A stretch of DNA of 64,000 bases from Acidobacteriota bacterium (lineage in GTDB: Bacteria > Acidobacteriota > UBA6911 > RPQK01 > JAJDTT01). Of the stretch, positions 7,342 to 12,094 are shown piece by piece (position 1 is the stretch's first letter; each line of letters begins with the position of its first letter). Both the position numbers and the translations under genes were made by a program. The stretch covers positions 1,152,001-1,216,000 of the forward strand of contig CBDCJH010000002.1 in assembly GCA_965217775.1 (NCBI GenBank). The letters run 5' to 3'. The notes under the pieces are model-generated. The model did not search any database. It saw only the letters and a program-made list of their open reading frames with translations, and was not told the DNA's origin.

Positions 7342-9075
7342 ATGCTTCACGTCGGATCGCTGGAGGAAGTTCGGTCCAGAAGTCCCCTGGTGGTGTCCAA
7401 GGGCCCGGTCCCCATCGTGATCTTCCACCACGATGGGGAGCTGCATGCCGTTGACAACCGCTGCCCGCACATGGGTTTTCCCCTGCATCGCGGCACCGTG
7501 GAGGACGGCATCCTCACCTGCTATTGGCACCATGCGCGCTTCGATCTGGTGAGCGGCTGCACCTTCAATCTGTTCGCCGACGATGTGGATTCCTACGGCG
7601 TAGAGGTCCGGGACGGGCAGGTCTTTCTGGACGTCACGCCGCCGCCGGTCGATCCGGTCCGGCGCTGGAGCCAGCGGCTCACGGAGGGGATGGAGCAGAA
7701 TCTCAGCCTGATCGTGGGCAAATCGGTGGTGGGACTGCACCACAGCGGTGTGTCCCACGACCAGGTCGCACGGCAGGGGGCTCTTTACGGAGTCCGTCAT
7801 CGCCGGGACTGGAGTTCGGGCCTCACCATCCTCAGCGCCATGGCCAACGTCTGCGACGGCCTCGCGGGAACCGAGCGGATCCCGCCCATGTACCACGGAC
7901 TGGTCCAAATCGCCCGGGACTGCTCCGGCCGGACTCCCAAGTTCGAAATTCAGCCCCTTAGAAATCAGGAGATCCCGGCGGGCCATCTCAAGCGCTGGTT
8001 CCGCTACTTCGTGGAGGTCAGGAGCACCGAGGGCGCCGAGCGCTGCCTCCTGACCGCCGTCCACAAAGGGATGTCGGACGCCCAGTTGACCGACTTGGTG
8101 GGTGCCGCGGCCACCGACCACGTCTACCTGGACGGCGGCCACGTCATCGACTTCGTGAACAAGGCCTTCGAGCTGCTGGACCGCATCGGCTGGGAACATG
8201 CCGGCCGGTTGCTGCCCGCCCTGATCCAGCCCCTGTGCCTGGCGGTTCGAAGCGAGGAGAGAAATCCGTGGCGGCACCCCATCGATCTGGTGCCCCTGCT
8301 GCGCCAGGCGGTGGCCCAAATCCCCGAAGCGCTGGAAGCGGGGCAGGGGAAGACCTGGACCAAGCCGAATAACTTCACTGAAGCTTTGTTCAGCGACGAT
8401 CCCCACACCCCCATCGAGGCGCTATTGGCGGCGTTGCGCGAGGGCGCCCAACCGGTGCAGTTGGCCCAAGCCGTGGCCTACTCCGCGGCGCTACGCATCG
8501 TCCGATTTCATGTCCAGAACGAGTTGGCCGACTGGGTCGCGGTCCTGCACACTTTCACCTACTCCAACGCCCTGCATCAGCTGCTCAAACGCAACCCGTC
8601 GCCCGATCTGACACGGGGCGTGTTTCACGGTGCCATGCGAGTCTATCTGGACCGTTTCTTCAATATCCCGCCGGCACGGCTGCCATCAAGCCGGGCCTCG
8701 TCCCCGGCGGAGCTGAACGGAGATTCGATTCGGGCTCGTCTCCTGACGCTCATGAACCACCAGCAGGAGACGGACCGGGCCGGACAGATAGTCTGGAGTT
8801 ACCTGGAGCGGGGCGGGTCCGAGGGTCCGCTCATCTCGGCCCTGACCGAGAGCCTGATGCGGGAGGACGCCAACTTCCACACGTTTCAGATGCTGGAGGC
8901 GGCCATTCGGCAATACACCGAGTCCGAGGACCCGGACGAGAAGCATCTGGTGATGGTCGGGGCGGCCCGCTACCTGGCGGCCCATGCTCCGACTCAGCGG
9001 GCCATGAACCAGACCCTCCGCGTCGCCATCCGCCTTCATCGAGGAGACCCGGTCTACGAACCGGAGACGGACTAG
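7342..9075 (+). CDS. Rieske [2Fe-2S] domain protein with long helical C-terminal region
   Basis: N-terminal CPH...CYWH Rieske ligands; AGGAAAG RBS before the ATG at 7342. Confidence 0.82.
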   Translation: MLHVGSLEEVRSRSPLVVSKGPVPIVIFHHDGELHAVDNRCPHMGFPLHRGTVEDGILTCYWHHARFDLVSGCTFNLFADDVDSYGVEVRDGQVFLDVTPPPVDPVRRWSQRLTEGMEQNLSLIVGKSVVGLHHSGVSHDQVARQGALYGVRHRRDWSSGLTILSAMANVCDGLAGTERIPPMYHGLVQIARDCSGRTPKFEIQPLRNQEIPAGHLKRWFRYFVEVRSTEGAERCLLTAVHKGMSDAQLTDLVGAAATDHVYLDGGHVIDFVNKAFELLDRIGWEHAGRLLPALIQPLCLAVRSEERNPWRHPIDLVPLLRQAVAQIPEALEAGQGKTWTKPNNFTEALFSDDPHTPIEALLAALREGAQPVQLAQAVAYSAALRIVRFHVQNELADWVAVLHTFTYSNALHQLLKRNPSPDLTRGVFHGAMRVYLDRFFNIPPARLPSSRASSPAELNGDSIRARLLTLMNHQQETDRAGQIVWSYLERGGSEGPLISALTESLMREDANFHTFQMLEAAIRQYTESEDPDEKHLVMVGAARYLAAHAPTQRAMNQTLRVAIRLHRGDPVYEPETD

Positions 9076-9098
9076 GAGCGACGACTTTCTTGTCGCCG
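9075..9098 (+). repeat. REP-like palindrome (GGAG type)
   Basis: GGAGCGACGACTTTCTTGTCGCCG; same family as the copies at 10659-10880. Confidence 0.75.
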
Positions 9099-9334
9099 GA
9101 TGGGAGTATCCATGTTGCAAGTGGTGGGTGCTAATCGGTGTTTCCATCCCGTGTCGTTAGTGCGTGATCTGTCCGGTCCAAGAGGCACAGGGTTAGGAGG
9201 AGCGTTCTTCCGCCGGAGGTGAGGCGGAGATCGAACTGGATCCGCCGGGCGCCGTGCAGGGGGCGATGAGTGGACCGATCAACTGGATCGAGGGGCCTGA
9301 GATCGTCGACGTCAGTCCTCCGGGAGGTCCGGAT

Positions 9335-9417
9335 ACGCCCTGGGGAGCGTCGGGTCAAGCCTCCGGCTCCTCCGCTTCGCTGCGCCCCTTCGGGTGACCC
9401 GACGCTCCCCAGGGCGT
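9335..9417. repeat. perfect 23-bp inverted repeat (hairpin)
   Basis: ACGCCCTGGGGAGCGTCGGGTCA (9335-9357) / TGACCCGACGCTCCCCAGGGCGT (9395-9417). Confidence 0.9.
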
Positions 9418-9530
9418 GAAGAGCTTTCATGGCCGTAAGCAAGCTTCCGGCCAGGCCTGACCGGAAGTTCTACAGACGTTCCTTGGGGGACCCGACACGT
9501 CCCCTCTCCTCCTCGGGTCGCTCCGTGGGC

Positions 9531-10478
9531 TCAGGAGACCACGCGGGGTGCGACGGGCAACCAGGTGCGGTCCTGCCGGACGAGGGTGTTGGCCAGGACG
9601 ATGAGCTTGCGCATGACGGCGACGAGGGCCACCTTGCCGGGCTTGCCGCGCTCTCTCAGCCTCCGGTACACCTCGGCCAAGTCGGGGTTCCAGCGCAGGG
9701 CGGACACCGCCGGCATGTACAGGAGCCGTCGCGCCCGCGCCCGTCCGCCGCGGATGAACGCCCGGCCCTGCCAAGCCCCCGACTCGCGCGGAACGGCGGC
9801 CAACCCGGCCAGACTGGCGGCGGCCTTGCCGCTGAGGGCGCCCAACTCGGGCATCTCGGCCAGCAGACCGGCGGCGGTGGTGGCCGCGATCCCCGGGATG
9901 GAGGTGAGGATCTCCAACTTGCGGGCCCGCGCCTCGTCGGCCGCGATCAGCGTCTGCATTTTGCGGTCGATGGTGCGCACGTGACGCTCGAACATGTTGA
10001 TCTGGGTCTGGTGCTGCTGTTTCAACACGGGTTCGCGGAGCTGTTGGCGGCGGTTGAGCGTGGCCGTGCGCTGGCGCATCAGCCCGTCCCGGACCATCTG
10101 CAGTTCCTGGAGCCGGCGTTGCGTTTTCGACGGCGCCGGGGTCCGGCGCGGATCCAGGCTGGCGGCCAACTGGGCCAGTTTCCGAGCGTCTACGGCGTCG
10201 GTCTTGGCACGGCTCCCGGTCGCCTCGGCGAAGCGCCGCGCCTGCCAGGGGTTCACCTTCGCCAGCGGCAGCTTCGCTTTGGACAGCGCTTCCTCGAGGT
10301 CCCGGTGGTAGGGGCCGGTGGCCTCGTAGACGACGCACTCGACCGGAGTTCCGATCCAATCGATCAGCGCCCGGAAGCCGGCCGGGTCATTGTCGAACTG
10401 GGCGGAATGGCCGTCGGCCAGCCGGTGCGCGTCCAGGTGCGCTTTCGAGATGTCGATGCCTACGGTATGCTGTTTCAT
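9531..10478 (-). CDS. IS110 family transposase/recombinase
   Basis: VGIDISK, YEATG and AKTDAVDA (DEDD RuvC-like) motifs; C-terminal SIPGI...RESG...GGRARARRLLY. Confidence 0.95.
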   Translation of the reverse strand: MKQHTVGIDISKAHLDAHRLADGHSAQFDNDPAGFRALIDWIGTPVECVVYEATGPYHRDLEEALSKAKLPLAKVNPWQARRFAEATGSRAKTDAVDARKLAQLAASLDPRRTPAPSKTQRRLQELQMVRDGLMRQRTATLNRRQQLREPVLKQQHQTQINMFERHVRTIDRKMQTLIAADEARARKLEILTSIPGIAATTAAGLLAEMPELGALSGKAAASLAGLAAVPRESGAWQGRAFIRGGRARARRLLYMPAVSALRWNPDLAEVYRRLRERGKPGKVALVAVMRKLIVLANTLVRQDRTWLPVAPRVVS

Positions 10479-10484
10479 CTTTCC

Positions 10485-10612
10485 TGTCTCCTGTGCTTGT
10501 CATTCGGGCCATGATGCCCTTGTATCCATTCAGGACATCGGGAAAGACGGTGGCCGACCTCACTCCACATCCGGATCTGACGGTCAGCGGCGACACGGTC
10601 CAGCCACCGCCG
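10485..10612 (-). ncRNA. putative IS110 bridge RNA (left-end encoded); boundaries approximate
   Basis: On the minus strand it carries target guides GTCGCCGCT and TGGAG and donor guides ATGGATAC and GACAAG, in bridge-RNA order, matching the target and the element junction. Confidence 0.72.
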
Positions 10613-10658
10613 TCCGGGTCGCTCATGAGCGACCCGGACGGCCCTATTTAAACAGACA

Positions 10659-10880
10659 AGCGGCGGCTTTCTTGCCGCCGACCAGGGGGGTTAGGGGGGA
10701 CGGAGTCCCCACTCTACACTTTCCGGCCTCTACACTTTGCGGCCACCGAATCGCATAGCAACACAGAAGACCAGGCGACAAGAAAGTCGCCTGTCCCAAT
10801 GGGCGGCAAGAAAGCCGCCCCTCCTAATGGGCGGCAAGAAAGCCGCCCCTCCTAATGGGCGACAAGAAAGTCGCCCCTCC
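10659..10880. repeat. REP cluster (GGCG[G/A]CAAGAAAG[C/T]CGCC palindromes)
   Basis: One copy at 10659-10680 and four tandem copies of about 28-bp period at 10774-10880, in the opposite orientation. Confidence 0.85.
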
Positions 10881-12094
10881 TAATGCGGACCCCGGTTGTG
10901 CCACCAGCGCAACTCCAGGCCCCGCTCGTTGACGGCGACCACGTCGGGCCACTCATCCCCGTCCATGTCCGCCACGATCACGGTGGCGCCCAGAATCCAA
11001 TGCTCCTTCAGCGGGTGCTTCTTCCAGGGCGCCGTGGGATCTCCGGAATTCTCGAACCAGGCAACCTGCCCCTTCTGGCCGAACCCGGTGGCCACCACGT
11101 CCAGGTCGCCGTCCTTGTCCAGATCGTGGGGGACACCCTCGAAGCCGTACCAGAAACCTTCCTGGATGTTGTGCATGCGCCAGCGGTGGCCCCGTCCGGG
11201 TTCGCCAGTGTTCTCGTACCAGACCAGATAGTGGCGGTCGGGAGCATCTCTCCCCAGCAGCCCACCCGCCATGATCAGGTCCAGGTCGCCGTCCCGGTCG
11301 AGGTCGACGGGCGTCCCATGCATGGGAAGGTGGCGGAGGCTGATGACGTGCCGCCTCCAGGGACCGGCGGCCGGATTACCGCTGTTCTCGTACCAGAGAA
11401 CCATGCCGGCCACCCGGGCCGAACCTACGAGATCCATGAGCCCGTCCCCGTTGAAGTCTCCTGCCCGGATCATCCGCGTCTCGAACCGGCCTTCGTCCAC
11501 GACATGGGTGGGCCATTCCTCGTGCTGCCACGGACCGGGATTCCGATACCAGGTGAACTTGTTCCCGAGCCGCCAACTGGAAGCGGCCACATCCGGGCGG
11601 CCGTCCCCGTCCAGATCGGCCACGTCCACGTCGTAGGCCCCCATGAGGCCGCCGCTGGTGATGGAGTGTCTTTTCCACGATTTGGTCTGCGCCGGATTTC
11701 CCGGGTTCTCGAACCAGAAGACGTCGCCGTAGAAATTGTCGATCCCGACCAGATCGATACGCCCGTCCTGGTTGATGTCCGCCAGCCGGTGCCGTTCGTA
11801 ACGGCCTTGCCAGTCTTCGCTGGCGATGGAATGGCGCCGGAACTTGCCGGATCCGTCGTTCTCGTACCAGTAGAAGGCGTTGTGGATGCGGGATCCCTTG
11901 GTCCCGCAATCGGAACTGGTGAGATCCAGGTCGCCGTCACCGTCCAGGTCGGCCGCGGCCACGGCGTAGGCGTAGGTGTAGTCGTTGGAGATGAGGTGTT
12001 CCTCGAACTTCAGGTCACGGGCCTGAAGCAGCAGGCTCGCAGTGACGAGTCCGAGGCAGATTCCGTAGGTGTTTCGATACTTGGACCAATTCAT
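10880..12094 (-). CDS. secreted FG-GAP/VCBS repeat protein
   Basis: Repeated DLDGDGDLD / DFNGDGLMD motifs followed by WYEN; signal peptide; GGGAGG RBS. Confidence 0.9.
   Translation of the reverse strand: MNWSKYRNTYGICLGLVTASLLLQARDLKFEEHLISNDYTYAYAVAAADLDGDGDLDLTSSDCGTKGSRIHNAFYWYENDGSGKFRRHSIASEDWQGRYERHRLADINQDGRIDLVGIDNFYGDVFWFENPGNPAQTKSWKRHSITSGGLMGAYDVDVADLDGDGRPDVAASSWRLGNKFTWYRNPGPWQHEEWPTHVVDEGRFETRMIRAGDFNGDGLMDLVGSARVAGMVLWYENSGNPAAGPWRRHVISLRHLPMHGTPVDLDRDGDLDLIMAGGLLGRDAPDRHYLVWYENTGEPGRGHRWRMHNIQEGFWYGFEGVPHDLDKDGDLDVVATGFGQKGQVAWFENSGDPTAPWKKHPLKEHWILGATVIVADMDGDEWPDVVAVNERGLELRWWHNRGPH

What the first reader, a model, noticed from the sequence alone, without database searches (positions are those of the whole stretch)
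9105..10660. IS110 with a readable bridge RNA programmed to target the local REP
Seen (minus strand): the rebuilt target is GCCGCCG-CT-CCCA and the predicted circle junction is ATGGATA-CT-TGTC. The left-end non-coding region carries, in order, GTCGCCGCT (10586-10594; 8/9 to the left target plus core) and TGGAG (10563-10567; pairs with core plus right target). These are followed by ATGGATAC (10522-10529; left donor) and GACAAG (10496-10501; right donor). Known: IS110 bridge RNAs have target- and donor-binding loops around a dinucleotide core, and IS621 uses a CT core and REP targets. Inference: a natural bridge recombinase with specificity for this genome's GGAG-type REPs.
Basis: partly seen in the sequence, partly recalled or inferred. 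Interest (0 to 1): 0.7.

Follow-up and report, generated by a model that had tools for sequence, protein, structure and literature searches.

The report
IS110 element with REP-targeting bridge RNA
This is an intact jumping gene of the IS110 family whose own small guide RNA is written to match both its ends and a repeated hairpin sequence of the host genome, a natural but ordinary example of the recently described bridge-RNA recombinases.

Summary
Window 9105-10660 (minus strand) is a 1554-bp IS110-group insertion sequence flanked by CT cores. It sits just 3' of a REP hairpin. All four motifs are at the stated coordinates. Contigs from 4 of 4 public runs carry the empty site of this locus and skip exactly 1554 bp with a 2-nt overlap.

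The 182-nt left end folds, in a 15-sequence consensus, into a 5' stem-loop plus two internal loops. These loops hold the target guides (GUCGCCGCU / GGAG) and the donor guides (AUGGAUAC / GACAAG), as in IS621.

The guides covary with the DNA. Eight left-target guides across 28 loci match their own flanks 7/7 in 24 loci. Right-donor guides track three left-end variants. In a 40-44% identical alphaproteobacterial relative, the target I predicted from its loop was then found in its flanks.

The protein is an IS110 RNA-guided transposase (NF033542 5.7e-61; IS621 structure 4.5e-31).

RNA expression and recombination activity are not shown.

Extras: the target loop behaves as a swappable cassette, and two left-end stubs end exactly at the guide-coding DNA.

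The parts
9105..10658 (-). The insertion sequence proper: 1554 bp counting one copy of the CT core (9105-10660 with both cores).
   Evidence: Shared ends of four genomic copies. Empty-site contigs skip exactly 9105-10658 with a 2-nt overlap in 4 of 4 runs.
10659..10660 (-). Left CT core dinucleotide.
   Evidence: REP-array homology to the flank stops at 10659.
9105..9106 (-). Right CT core dinucleotide.
10661..10680 (-). REP hairpin (GGCGGC-AAGAAA-GCCGCC plus G). Its 3' arm, 10661-10667, is the left target GCCGCCG.
   Evidence: One search lists the stem at 10680..10661. Searches show it is one of about 200 such hairpin-plus-target sites.
9101..9104 (-). Right target CCCA. Only 9104-9103 (CC) pair with the right target guide.
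9075..9099 (-). Next REP hairpin of the array, downstream of the insertion.
   Evidence: read directly from the sequence.
10479..10642 (-). Predicted bridge RNA, about 160 nt, from the 5' stem-loop to just before the start codon. The exact 5' and 3' ends are not determined.
   Evidence: Fold z = -5.99. Consensus structure. Pair counts: 97% of cells paired, 14 pairs with changes on both sides against 4.9 in shuffles, 0 of 500 shuffles as high.
10609..10642 (-). 5' stem-loop: 15-bp stem with a CAUG loop.
   Evidence: Compensatory changes in relatives and in both stubs.
10549..10608 (-). Target-binding loop module: outer stems GGUGGC..GGACC / GGUC..GCCACC enclosing the guides.
   Evidence: helices 3 and 4.
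10586..10594 (-). Left target guide GUCGCCGCU. It has the same sense as left target plus core; 8/9 to this copy's target and 9/9 to copy L002's target.
10563..10566 (-). Right target guide GGAG, complementary to CT-CC. The U at 10562 is the candidate handshake base for donor A7.
   Evidence: Handshake rule from PMC11208158.
10489..10535 (-). Donor-binding loop module: outer stem UCCUG/CAGGA and inner stem GGGC/GCCC.
   Evidence: helices 6 and 7; G-C to A-U compensation in 4 sequences.
10522..10529 (-). Left donor guide AUGGAUAC, equal to the right-end terminus ATGGATA plus C.
10496..10501 (-). Right donor guide GACAAG, complementary to CT-TGTC at the left-end terminus. The C at 10495 is the candidate handshake base for target G7.
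   Evidence: It covaries in the Foliamicus relatives.
9531..10478 (-). Recombinase gene, 315 aa. Candidate catalytic residues D9, E52, D94, D97 and S233.
9105..9530 (-). Right end, 426 nt. The last roughly 80 nt are shared with the short-ended Acidobacteriota relative L045 (the other short ends align over less). About 345 nt are an accreted non-coding insert.
9107..9113 (-). Left donor ATGGATA (terminus of the right end).
   Evidence: conserved in all relatives examined.
9115..9120 (-). -35-like hexamer TTGCAA. After circularisation it would lie 17 nt upstream of TTAAAT (10646-10651).
   Evidence: Read by eye. The hexamer is conserved at the same place as TTGCAA, TTGCAT or TTGACA in relatives. 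No promoter is found in the integrated state.
9333..9419 (-). Long hairpin inside the right-end insert: about a 22-bp stem capped by a three-way junction. Role unknown.
   Evidence: -66.4 kcal/mol, z = -5.79. One search gives only sub-threshold miRNA-like hits.

Best explanation
Window 9105-10660 (minus strand) is an intact IS110-group insertion sequence that works like IS621.

**Inferred life cycle (from IS621).**
1. On excision as a circle, the right and left ends join at the CT core.
2. This puts a -35-like hexamer of the right end 17 nt upstream of a -10-like hexamer of the left end.
3. A bridge RNA of about 160 nt is then transcribed from the left end.

**Inferred recognition (from the sequences here).** The RNA has a 5' stem-loop and two internal loops.
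[quoted passage not shown] - In the donor loop, AUGGAUAC pairs with the right-end terminus and GACAAG with the left-end terminus.
- The 315-aa DEDD/serine recombinase, presumably as a tetramer as solved for IS621, would exchange strands after the T of each core. The circle is thereby inserted next to REP hairpins without target duplication beyond the shared core.

**Shown here:** the boundaries, the target, the architecture, the guide-DNA covariation and the protein family.

**Inferred from IS621:** transcription, RNA binding, catalysis and the circle.
For: **Protein.**
- PF01548 4.7e-23 and PF02371 1.4e-18.
- NF033542 'IS110 family RNA-guided transposase' 5.7e-61, 206.5 bits against a cutoff of 140.
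- ISCro4 (9t56) 6.6e-35 and IS621 (8wt6) 4.5e-31 over residues 3-299.
- The GID, YEATG, DAVD and ESG motifs are present.

**Boundaries.**
- Four copies at 98-100% identity share the same ends.
- The empty site is present in 4 of 4 runs.

**RNA structure.**
- Fold z = -5.99, 0 of 200 shuffles as stable.
- The consensus of 15 sequences gives a 5' stem-loop plus two internal-loop modules: 34 pairs, 14 with changes on both sides.
- 97% of cells are paired. 0 of 500 shuffles reach the observed values, and slid controls give 34-52%.

**Target guides (28 loci, 8 distinct left target guides).**
- 24 loci match their own left flank 7/7.
- W, L034 and L050 match 6/7 and L049 matches 5/7.
- Single-base covariation occurs (ACCGACG, GACGCCG, CACGCCG, GCCCTCG).
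- Own mean is 6.71 against a cross-group mean of 4.47. 16 of 40320 permutations reach the observed total.
- The right target guide is complementary for 4-8 contiguous nt in 23 of 25 loci.

**Donor guides.** The right donor guide follows three left-end variants: CTTGTC, CTTGTA and CTTATCTG.

**Second element family in the same genome.** It has the same ends but a different loop, and it sits in a different repeat: CT-CCCT against AGGGAG 6/6, and GUAUGC 6 contiguous.

**Alphaproteobacterial relatives.** The loop predicted the target TTCGTGT-CT-CACG before I read the flanks. Of 12 loci examined (out of 41), 8 match 7/7 on the left and 12 of 12 match CACGGC on the right.

**Handshake positions.** They fit the IS621 rule: U opposite donor A7 and C opposite target G7.

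**REP sites.** The three 11-mers occur 60-152 times each against 13-21 expected by composition. 199 of 296 sites lie behind a hairpin arm.
Against: - **No strand-specific RNA evidence.** Contigs from RNA libraries cover the ORF and the left end. They cannot show strand, ends or even transcription.
- **No circle junction seen.** The junction 13-mer is absent from the assembly. No such joint is among the rows shown, and 23 rows were not shown.
- **No promoter in the integrated copy**. The junction promoter was read by eye only.
- **Guide mismatches.** This copy's left target guide has one mismatch to its own target. In the most prolific variants the guide base opposite core T is G, not U, and the left donor guide has A or G there.
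- **A degenerate guide variant.** Two loci (L039, L042) carry a GCAG right target guide that does not match their flanks.
- **Fold disagreement.** The single-sequence fold differs from the consensus at the donor loop.
- **No curated RNA family.** Rfam 15 has no match on this strand of the left end.
Confidence: 0.9

Rival explanations
1. The element is a genuine IS110 with a readable bridge RNA, but site choice is set jointly by RNA pairing and by the REP stem-loop itself as a structural gate, as reported for ISPpu10. On this view the guides alone do not explain the REP preference.
For: - The left target is the 3' arm of a hairpin in W, the three other copies, most Acidobacteriota relatives and the Foliamicus relatives.
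- 199 of 296 perfect sites lie behind a hairpin arm.
- The ISPpu10 preprint abstract reports such a dual-match logic (abstract and outline only).
Against: - L031, L047 and L048 sit in a different repeat. There the target is not the arm of the adjacent hairpin, yet it matches the guide 7/7.
- About a third of perfect 11-mers have no hairpin, and I have no occupancy data to compare the two classes. Only 4 sites plus 1 stub are occupied.
- This explanation adds to the main one rather than replacing it.
Confidence: 0.3
2. The copies in this genome are recent but now silent relics. The bridge RNA can be read, but the element no longer moves here.
For: - Only 4 of about 296 perfect sites are occupied.
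- Two of the four copies carry a nested ISKra4-family element in the right end.
- One remnant stub is present.
- No circle junction was seen.
Against: - All four recombinase ORFs are open and 99-100% identical at protein level.
- The left ends are identical within each guide type.
- This very locus is polymorphic for the insertion in 4 of 4 runs.
- The composite carrying the nested IS stands at two different loci, so it moved after the nesting.
Confidence: 0.12
3. The left-end matches to target and ends are DNA-level features, namely protein-binding subterminal repeats or captured target sequence, and not RNA guides.
For: None specific. The matches were first seen as DNA strings only.
Against: - The four strings fall in the two internal loops of a covariation-supported RNA fold.
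- They have the strand asymmetry defined for IS621: left guides in sense, right guides in antisense.
- They covary base by base with DNA.
- The recombinase is homologous to the structurally solved RNA-guided enzymes.
Confidence: 0.03

Closest known systems
IS621 of E. coli and its bridge RNA (Durrant et al. 2024, PMC11208160; Hiraizumi et al. 2024, PMC11208158; passages read)
   Same: - DEDD plus Tnp recombinase (E 4.5e-31 to 8wt6).
- CT core and no inverted repeats.
- Left-end RNA with a 5' stem-loop, then a target loop and a donor loop.
- 9-nt left target guide in sense and 4-nt right target guide in antisense.
- Donor guides that match the element's own termini.
- Handshake positions.
- A -35 element in the right end.
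- Insertion beside REP-type palindromes. That IS621 uses REPs is my recollection; in the paper I saw only the cited reference.
   Different: - Different host phylum: the closest relatives are Acidobacteriota MAGs.
- Different target (GYCGCCG-CT-CC here; ATCAGGC-CT-AC for IS621) and a different donor left half.
- The right end is 426 nt, longer than the left end, because of an accreted insert.
- Several natural guide variants have G rather than U opposite core T.
- No experimental data exist for this element.
ISCro4 transposase (PDB 9t56)
   Same: Best solved-structure match: 6.6e-35 over residues 3-299.
   Different: Only the sequence match was examined. I read nothing about its RNA or target.
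ISPpu10 and ISPpu9 of Pseudomonas putida (bioRxiv 10.64898/2026.03.19.712850, abstract and outline; PMC12288879, abstract and outline)
   Same: - IS110 elements inserted in REP or intergenic stem-loop repeats.
- ISPpu10 has a target stem-loop 5' of the paired site.
- ISPpu9 carries an extra non-coding module downstream of the transposase gene, with further copies elsewhere in the genome. This resembles the 345-nt right-end insert here, whose fragments recur elsewhere.
   Different: - No sequence relation was tested.
- No internal copy of the donor end delimits the right-end insert here, so modular circles are not indicated (one search found only two ATGGATAC sites per element).
IS1111 subgroup of the IS110 family
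   Same: Same protein family. Here too the right end is longer than the left end.
   Different: The bridge RNA is in the left end, not the right end. No long subterminal inverted repeats were seen. The element is therefore not a member of this subgroup.

Membership tests
IS110 family, IS110 group (IS621-type bridge recombinase element) | Recombinase with a RuvC-like DEDD domain (PF01548) followed by a Tnp domain (PF02371). | tested here: met
   (4.7e-23 and 1.4e-18, both above their cutoffs). (NF033542, 206.5 bits against a cutoff of 140). (IS621 4.5e-31).
IS110 family, IS110 group (IS621-type bridge recombinase element) | Catalytic D, E, D, D and a serine in the Tnp domain (IS621 D11, E60, D102, D105, S241). 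| tested here: met
   The GIDIS, YEATG, KTDAVDA and PRESG motifs place D9, E52, D94, D97 and S233. They are aligned to the same motifs of ISCro4. The residues were assigned by motif context, not by a residue-by-residue alignment to IS621.
IS110 family, IS110 group (IS621-type bridge recombinase element) | CT core at both ends, no terminal inverted repeats, no target duplication beyond the core. | tested here: met
   (a 1554-bp skip with a 2-nt overlap).
IS110 family, IS110 group (IS621-type bridge recombinase element) | Structured non-coding RNA gene in the left end: a 5' stem-loop and two stem-loops with internal loops. | tested here: met
   in silico only. The single-sequence fold differs at the donor loop.
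IS110 family, IS110 group (IS621-type bridge recombinase element) | The first loop pairs with the target: left guide in sense with left target plus core, right guide antisense to core plus right target. The loop covaries with targets. | tested here: met
   24 of 28 loci match 7/7, and 16 of 40320 permutations reach the observed total.
IS110 family, IS110 group (IS621-type bridge recombinase element) | The second loop pairs with the element's own joined ends and covaries with them. | tested here: met
   The left donor is constant, and three right-donor variants are each matched.
IS110 family, IS110 group (IS621-type bridge recombinase element) | Promoter rebuilt across the right-left junction of the circle. 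| tested here: inconclusive
   TTGCAA-17 nt-TTAAAT was read by eye. The -35-like hexamer is conserved in relatives. The joined sequence was not scanned with a tool, and one search finds no promoter in the integrated state.
IS110 family, IS110 group (IS621-type bridge recombinase element) | Circular intermediate; RNA expressed and bound by the recombinase; RNA-dependent recombination. | not testable with these tools
   One search used contigs only. No circle joint is among the rows shown. RNA-library contigs cover the left end but prove nothing about strand or ends.
IS1111 group | Bridge (seek) RNA in the right end and long subterminal inverted repeats. | tested here: not met
   The guides and the covarying fold are in the left end. 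Most of the right end is a variable insert that is absent from some relatives.
REP (repetitive extragenic palindrome) as target | A short palindromic unit repeated many times, mostly between genes. | tested here: met
   296 perfect 11-mer sites, 199 of them behind a complementary arm. The insertion lies between the 3' ends of two convergent ORFs. The intergenic location of the other sites was not tallied.

The most novel reading that the evidence does not exclude
Two things go beyond a routine new member.

**(a) The guide-coding DNA may be a substrate of the element's own machinery.** The DNA that encodes the left target guide is, by construction, a perfect left half-target plus core. Two independent left-end stubs, one in this genome and one in a related MAG, end exactly at that CT (within 2 nt). 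One of them is fused directly to the REP right flank that a normal excision would restore. This would be a built-in route to self-deletion.

**(b) The 34-nt target-loop core may evolve as a cassette.** It is 62% identical between copies of this genome that are 99% identical elsewhere. It is 97% identical to a copy in another MAG whose gene is only 89% identical. The loop is therefore either exchanged between lineages or kept apart while the rest of the element is homogenised.
Probability: 0.4. Interest if true: 0.55.

Novelty: new member of a known kind. Interest (0 to 1): 0.4.

Why it matters
The element adds a well-bounded natural bridge recombinase from an uncultured lineage. The closest relatives are Acidobacteriota MAGs. 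No paper in the searched library holds 'bridge RNA', 'IS110' and 'Acidobacteri' together.

It comes with an unusually clean natural data set: one donor loop combined with at least ten different target loops, each sitting in its matching repeat across several genomes.

That set could serve three uses:
- Benchmarking guide-prediction rules.
- Asking which guide positions tolerate mismatches in nature, namely positions 1-2 of the left target and the base opposite core T.
- Testing whether guide-coding DNA acts as a pseudo-target.

As a discovery of kind it is not surprising. IS110 bridge RNAs and their REP preference are established.

Tried and rejected
- **Rfam.** The evalue-mode scan of 8500-11500 gave four sub-threshold hits. 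These were Collinsella-1 on the plus strand over the REPs, two miRNA families on the right-end hairpin, and a lncRNA. None explains the left end.
- **Promoter scan.** The scan of the integrated copy found none.
- **Circle junction.** It was not found in the assembly (0 hits) nor among the joints shown. Those are contigs, 23 further rows were not shown, and absence there proves nothing.
- **RNA-library contigs.** X7 record 23 (9296-10514) and X9 record 30 (10506-10640) cover the ORF and the left end at about 93-97% identity. They cannot show transcription, strand or ends. I do not count them as evidence of expression.
- **Other joints.** Joints such as 9098->10686 are REP-to-REP similarity, not structure.
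- **A wrong boundary.** I first took the apparent boundary seen in L095 as the left end of the alphaproteobacterial element. The real junction lies 58 nt further upstream.
- **L046/L097.** They first looked like the second family by their upstream 230 nt. The guide pair reported for L046 comes from a bridge region at 1760-1941 of that locus.
- **L050.** The row is mis-framed by 3 nt because I used fixed coordinates. Its values there (3/7 and 2) are artefacts. One search gives 6/7, and the sequence gives 8/8 for the right donor.
- **Rows dropped.** L043 was dropped because its left end is interrupted. 41 alphaproteobacterial loci, L097 and L098 were not in the 28-locus count. Only 12 of the 41 alphaproteobacterial loci were examined.
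- **Literature.** One search was too loose to be useful. One search found two reviews only.
Full report
**What is there**

On the minus strand, window 10478-9531 is a 315-aa ORF.
- It carries PF01548 (DEDD_Tnp_IS110, 4.7e-23) and PF02371 (Transposase_20, 1.4e-18).
- It passes NCBIfam NF033542 'IS110 family RNA-guided transposase' (5.7e-61, 206.5 bits, cutoff 140).
- It matches the solved ISCro4 (9t56, 6.6e-35) and IS621 (8wt6, 4.5e-31) recombinases over residues 3-299.
- The motifs that hold the IS621 catalytic residues (D11, E60, D102, D105, S241; PMC11208158, passages) are present. They place D9, E52, D94, D97 and S233.

**Boundaries**

The window's genome (6.43 Mb, 62% G+C) holds four copies at 98-100% identity.
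- All four begin ...CG-CT|TGTCTGTTTAAAT and end ...CAACATGGATA-CT|CC. They differ outside these points.
- Ten of the 21 long BLAST rows are REP arrays that match the left flank and stop at window 10659, just after the CT.
- Contigs from 4 of 4 public runs join 9104 to 10659. They skip 1554 bp with two letters that fit either side. One 188-nt contig covers unique flank 9000-9104 and 10659-10713.

The element is therefore 1554 bp (9105-10658) with a CT core on each side. The locus is polymorphic in nature.

The insertion lies between the 3' ends of two convergent ORFs. One is a Rieske-type protein ending at 9075. The other is an unassigned repeat-rich protein ending at 10880. It sits inside a REP array.

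**The motifs**

In IS621 terms (PMC11208160, passages) they read as follows.

| Motif | Window | Role | Match |
|---|---|---|---|
| GUCGCCGCU | 10594-10586 | left target guide | sense of left target plus core; 8/9 here, 9/9 for copy L002 |
| GGAG | 10566-10563 | right target guide | antisense of CT-CC |
| AUGGAUAC | 10529-10522 | left donor guide | sense of the right-end terminus plus C |
| GACAAG | 10501-10496 | right donor guide | antisense of CT-TGTC at the left-end terminus |

All 4 loci with this guide have CT-CCC.

**Fold**

The 182-nt left end folds at -88.8 kcal/mol, z = -5.99. That single fold puts the left donor guide in a hairpin loop.

An alignment of 15 distinct left ends from four lineages gives a different consensus.
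- A 5' stem-loop.
- A target module, with outer stems enclosing both target guides.
- A donor module: outer stem UCCUG/CAGGA and inner stem GGGC/GCCC, with the two donor guides on the two sides of the internal loop.

Of the 34 pairs, 14 keep pairing through changes on both sides.
- 97.0% of cells pair, against 90.7% in shuffles.
- 0 of 500 shuffles reach the observed double changes or covariation score.
- Sliding the partners drops pairing to 34-52%.

The alignment was not fitted to the structure. The sequences are related, so the shuffle count is not a probability.

**Guide-DNA covariation**

The search for related loci returned 68 loci:
- Acidobacteriota MAGs (85-94% protein identity).
- Candidatus Foliamicus MAGs (65-68%).
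- One alphaproteobacterial MAG (40-44%).

Over 28 loci with a readable left junction and loop there are 8 distinct left target guides.
- 24 loci match their own 7-nt left target 7/7.
- W, L034 and L050 match 6/7, and L049 matches 5/7.
- repeats this by coordinates. It shows L050 as 3/7 only because my fixed frame is 3 nt off for that locus.

The changes are base-specific:

| Guide | Flank | Loci |
|---|---|---|
| ACCGACGCG | ACCGACG | L031, L047, L048 |
| GACGCCGCU | GACGCCG | L045 |
| CACGCCGCU | CACGCCG | L046 |
| GCCCUCGCU | GCCCTCG (Foliamicus REP arm) | L051-L055 |

Further results:
- The own-pair mean is 6.71 against 4.47 for cross pairs. 16 of 40320 guide-target permutations reach the observed total.
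- The right target guide is complementary to core plus right flank for 4-8 contiguous nt in 23 of 25 loci. L039 and L042, with a GCAG variant, reach only 2.
- The right donor guide follows the left-end terminus through three variants: GACAAG with CTTGTC, UACAAG with CTTGTA, and CAGAUAAG with CTTATCTG.
- The base after the right target guide is U in all 15 aligned sequences, opposite donor A7. The base after the right donor guide is C in 14 of 15, opposite target G7. This fits the handshake rule of PMC11208158.

**Two further tests**

*A second IS110 lineage in the same genome.*
- Four copies; 57% protein and 66% DNA identity.
- It has the same termini and the same donor guides, with a 510-nt left end.
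- It sits in a different repeat...CGGTATG-CT-CCCT..., whose 12-mer occurs 105 times.
- Its target loop reads GUAUGC (6 contiguous, one register off the W alignment) and AGGGAG (6/6 to CT-CCCT).

*The alphaproteobacterial relatives.* I read TTCGTGT-CT and CGUGAG from the loop (output) before locating the ends. The flanks then showed ...TTCGTGT-CT|TGTC and ATGGATA-CT|CACGGC.
- Left match: 7/7 in 8 of the 12 loci examined, 6/7 in 2, 5/7 in 1 and 4/7 in 1.
- Right match: 12 of 12. These were 12 of 41 such loci.

**REP targeting**

The three 11-mers (left target, core, CC) occur 84, 60 and 152 times. Base composition predicts 21, 13 and 13. 199 of the 296 sites have the complementary arm within 22 nt upstream.

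The left target is the 3' arm of the hairpin. The Foliamicus relatives do the same with their own, different REP. A target stem-loop as a second specificity layer is reported for ISPpu10 (abstract). It may apply here and was not tested.

**Promoter and expression**
- No sigma-70-like site exists in the integrated copy.
- Read by eye, TTGCAA (9120-9115) would lie 17 nt upstream of TTAAAT (10651-10646) once the ends are joined. A transcript would then start near the 5' stem-loop.
- The hexamer is TTGCAA, TTGCAT or TTGACA at the same place in relatives.
- This follows the IS621 model and remains an inference.

**Things beside the finding**

*Target-loop cassette.*

| Comparison | 34-nt loop core | Rest of left end | ORF |
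|---|---|---|---|
| W vs L003 (same genome) | 21/34 | 146/148 | 99.3% |
| W vs L040 (another MAG) | 33/34 | 137/148 | 88.6% |

*Left-end stubs.*
- A stub in this genome (contig C2, near 5,910,886-5,910,983) has a REP, the CT, left-end nt 1-75 ending in the guide-coding GTCGCCG-CT, and then directly a REP right flank CCCGTT....
- A stub in another MAG (L105 1501-1577) ends at the same CT, within 2 nt, and is followed by unrelated DNA.
- Both carry compensatory changes in the 5' stem.
- Two other left-end fragments in G001 do not end there. One breaks at about nt 30, and one is a diverged loop-bearing fragment.
- So 2 of the 4 left-end-only fragments seen end at the guide template.
- The simplest reading is recombinase action on the guide template as a half-target. 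A preprint describes half-match recombination for IS621 (abstract). Slippage cannot be excluded for the second stub.

*Other items.*
- Copies L003 and L004 carry a 1.85-kb ISKra4-family element in the right end, with a 9-bp duplication. They stand at different loci, so the composite moved.
- The right end is 426 nt here but 312, 349, 80 and 64 nt in relatives. In five of the six intact-ORF Foliamicus copies the ORF runs to 13 nt from the terminus.
- The extra 345 nt hold a hairpin with a 22-bp stem (z = -5.79). Diverged fragments of it recur elsewhere in the genome. This recalls the ssr9 module of ISPpu9 (abstract).

**Verdict**

This is a new member of a known kind. Its value is as a clean natural data set, not as a surprise.

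Noticed in passing
Own genome contig C2, about 5,910,886-5,910,983 (minus strand; locus L009), and L105:1501-1577: Two solo left-end stubs of 75-77 nt end exactly at the DNA that encodes the left target guide. The first is fused directly to a REP right flank. Both carry compensatory changes in the 5' stem-loop. Two other left-end fragments in G001 do not end there.
   Followed up: partly
Window 10563-10596, compared with L003, L004, L032 and L040: The 34-nt core of the target loop is 62% identical between same-genome copies that are 99% identical elsewhere. It is 97% identical to a copy in another MAG whose gene is 89% identical. The loop looks like a cassette.
   Followed up: partly
L003 and L004 (own genome C2 about 2,676,783-2,678,631 and 4,663,685-4,665,529; L099): A 1.85-kb ISKra4-family element is nested in the right end of two of the four copies. 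It has inverted ends and a 9-bp duplication, and its frame is broken in the L004 copy. The two carriers are at different loci, so the composite transposed as a unit.
   Followed up: partly
Window 9186-9530, hairpin at 9333-9419: The right end carries about 345 nt that are absent from some relatives. It includes a hairpin with a 22-bp stem capped by a three-way junction (z = -5.79). Diverged fragments of this insert occur at five other places in the genome, away from any IS110 gene.
   Followed up: partly
Own genome C2 3,135,316; 5,760,330; 1,656,751; 6,039,725 (L005-L008): A second IS110 lineage (57% protein identity, four copies) has the same termini and donor loop but a 510-nt left end. In two copies a 72-nt tandem duplication starts at the terminus. 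All four sit in one MITE-like repeat whose 12-mer target occurs 105 times.
   Followed up: partly
Own genome C2 4,367,328-4,368,218: A third, single IS110-family gene (42% identity). It was not examined.
   Followed up: no
L043 / L107 / L110 (G002 C1 1,171,625-1,172,999): In a related MAG one copy has about 1.2 kb inserted into the target loop at left-end nt 83/84.
   Followed up: no
L003 right flank, compared with own genome C2 about 2,675,349: About 1.3 kb from copy L003 lies a paralogous empty copy of its insertion site. The right flank of L003 differs from it by a short string that resembles a second left junction, possibly a trace of an earlier tandem copy.
   Followed up: no
Window 10661-10860 and genome-wide: A composite repeat is present: a G-rich/C-rich hairpin (GGGGACTCCGTCCCC...) followed by the REP hairpin. 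It recurs at 85-93% identity at many loci and hosts three of the four insertions.
   Followed up: no
Runs X7 and X9: Contigs of RNA libraries labelled sponge metagenome hold copies of the element at about 93-97% identity, and also the empty site. This says nothing firm about expression.
   Followed up: partly
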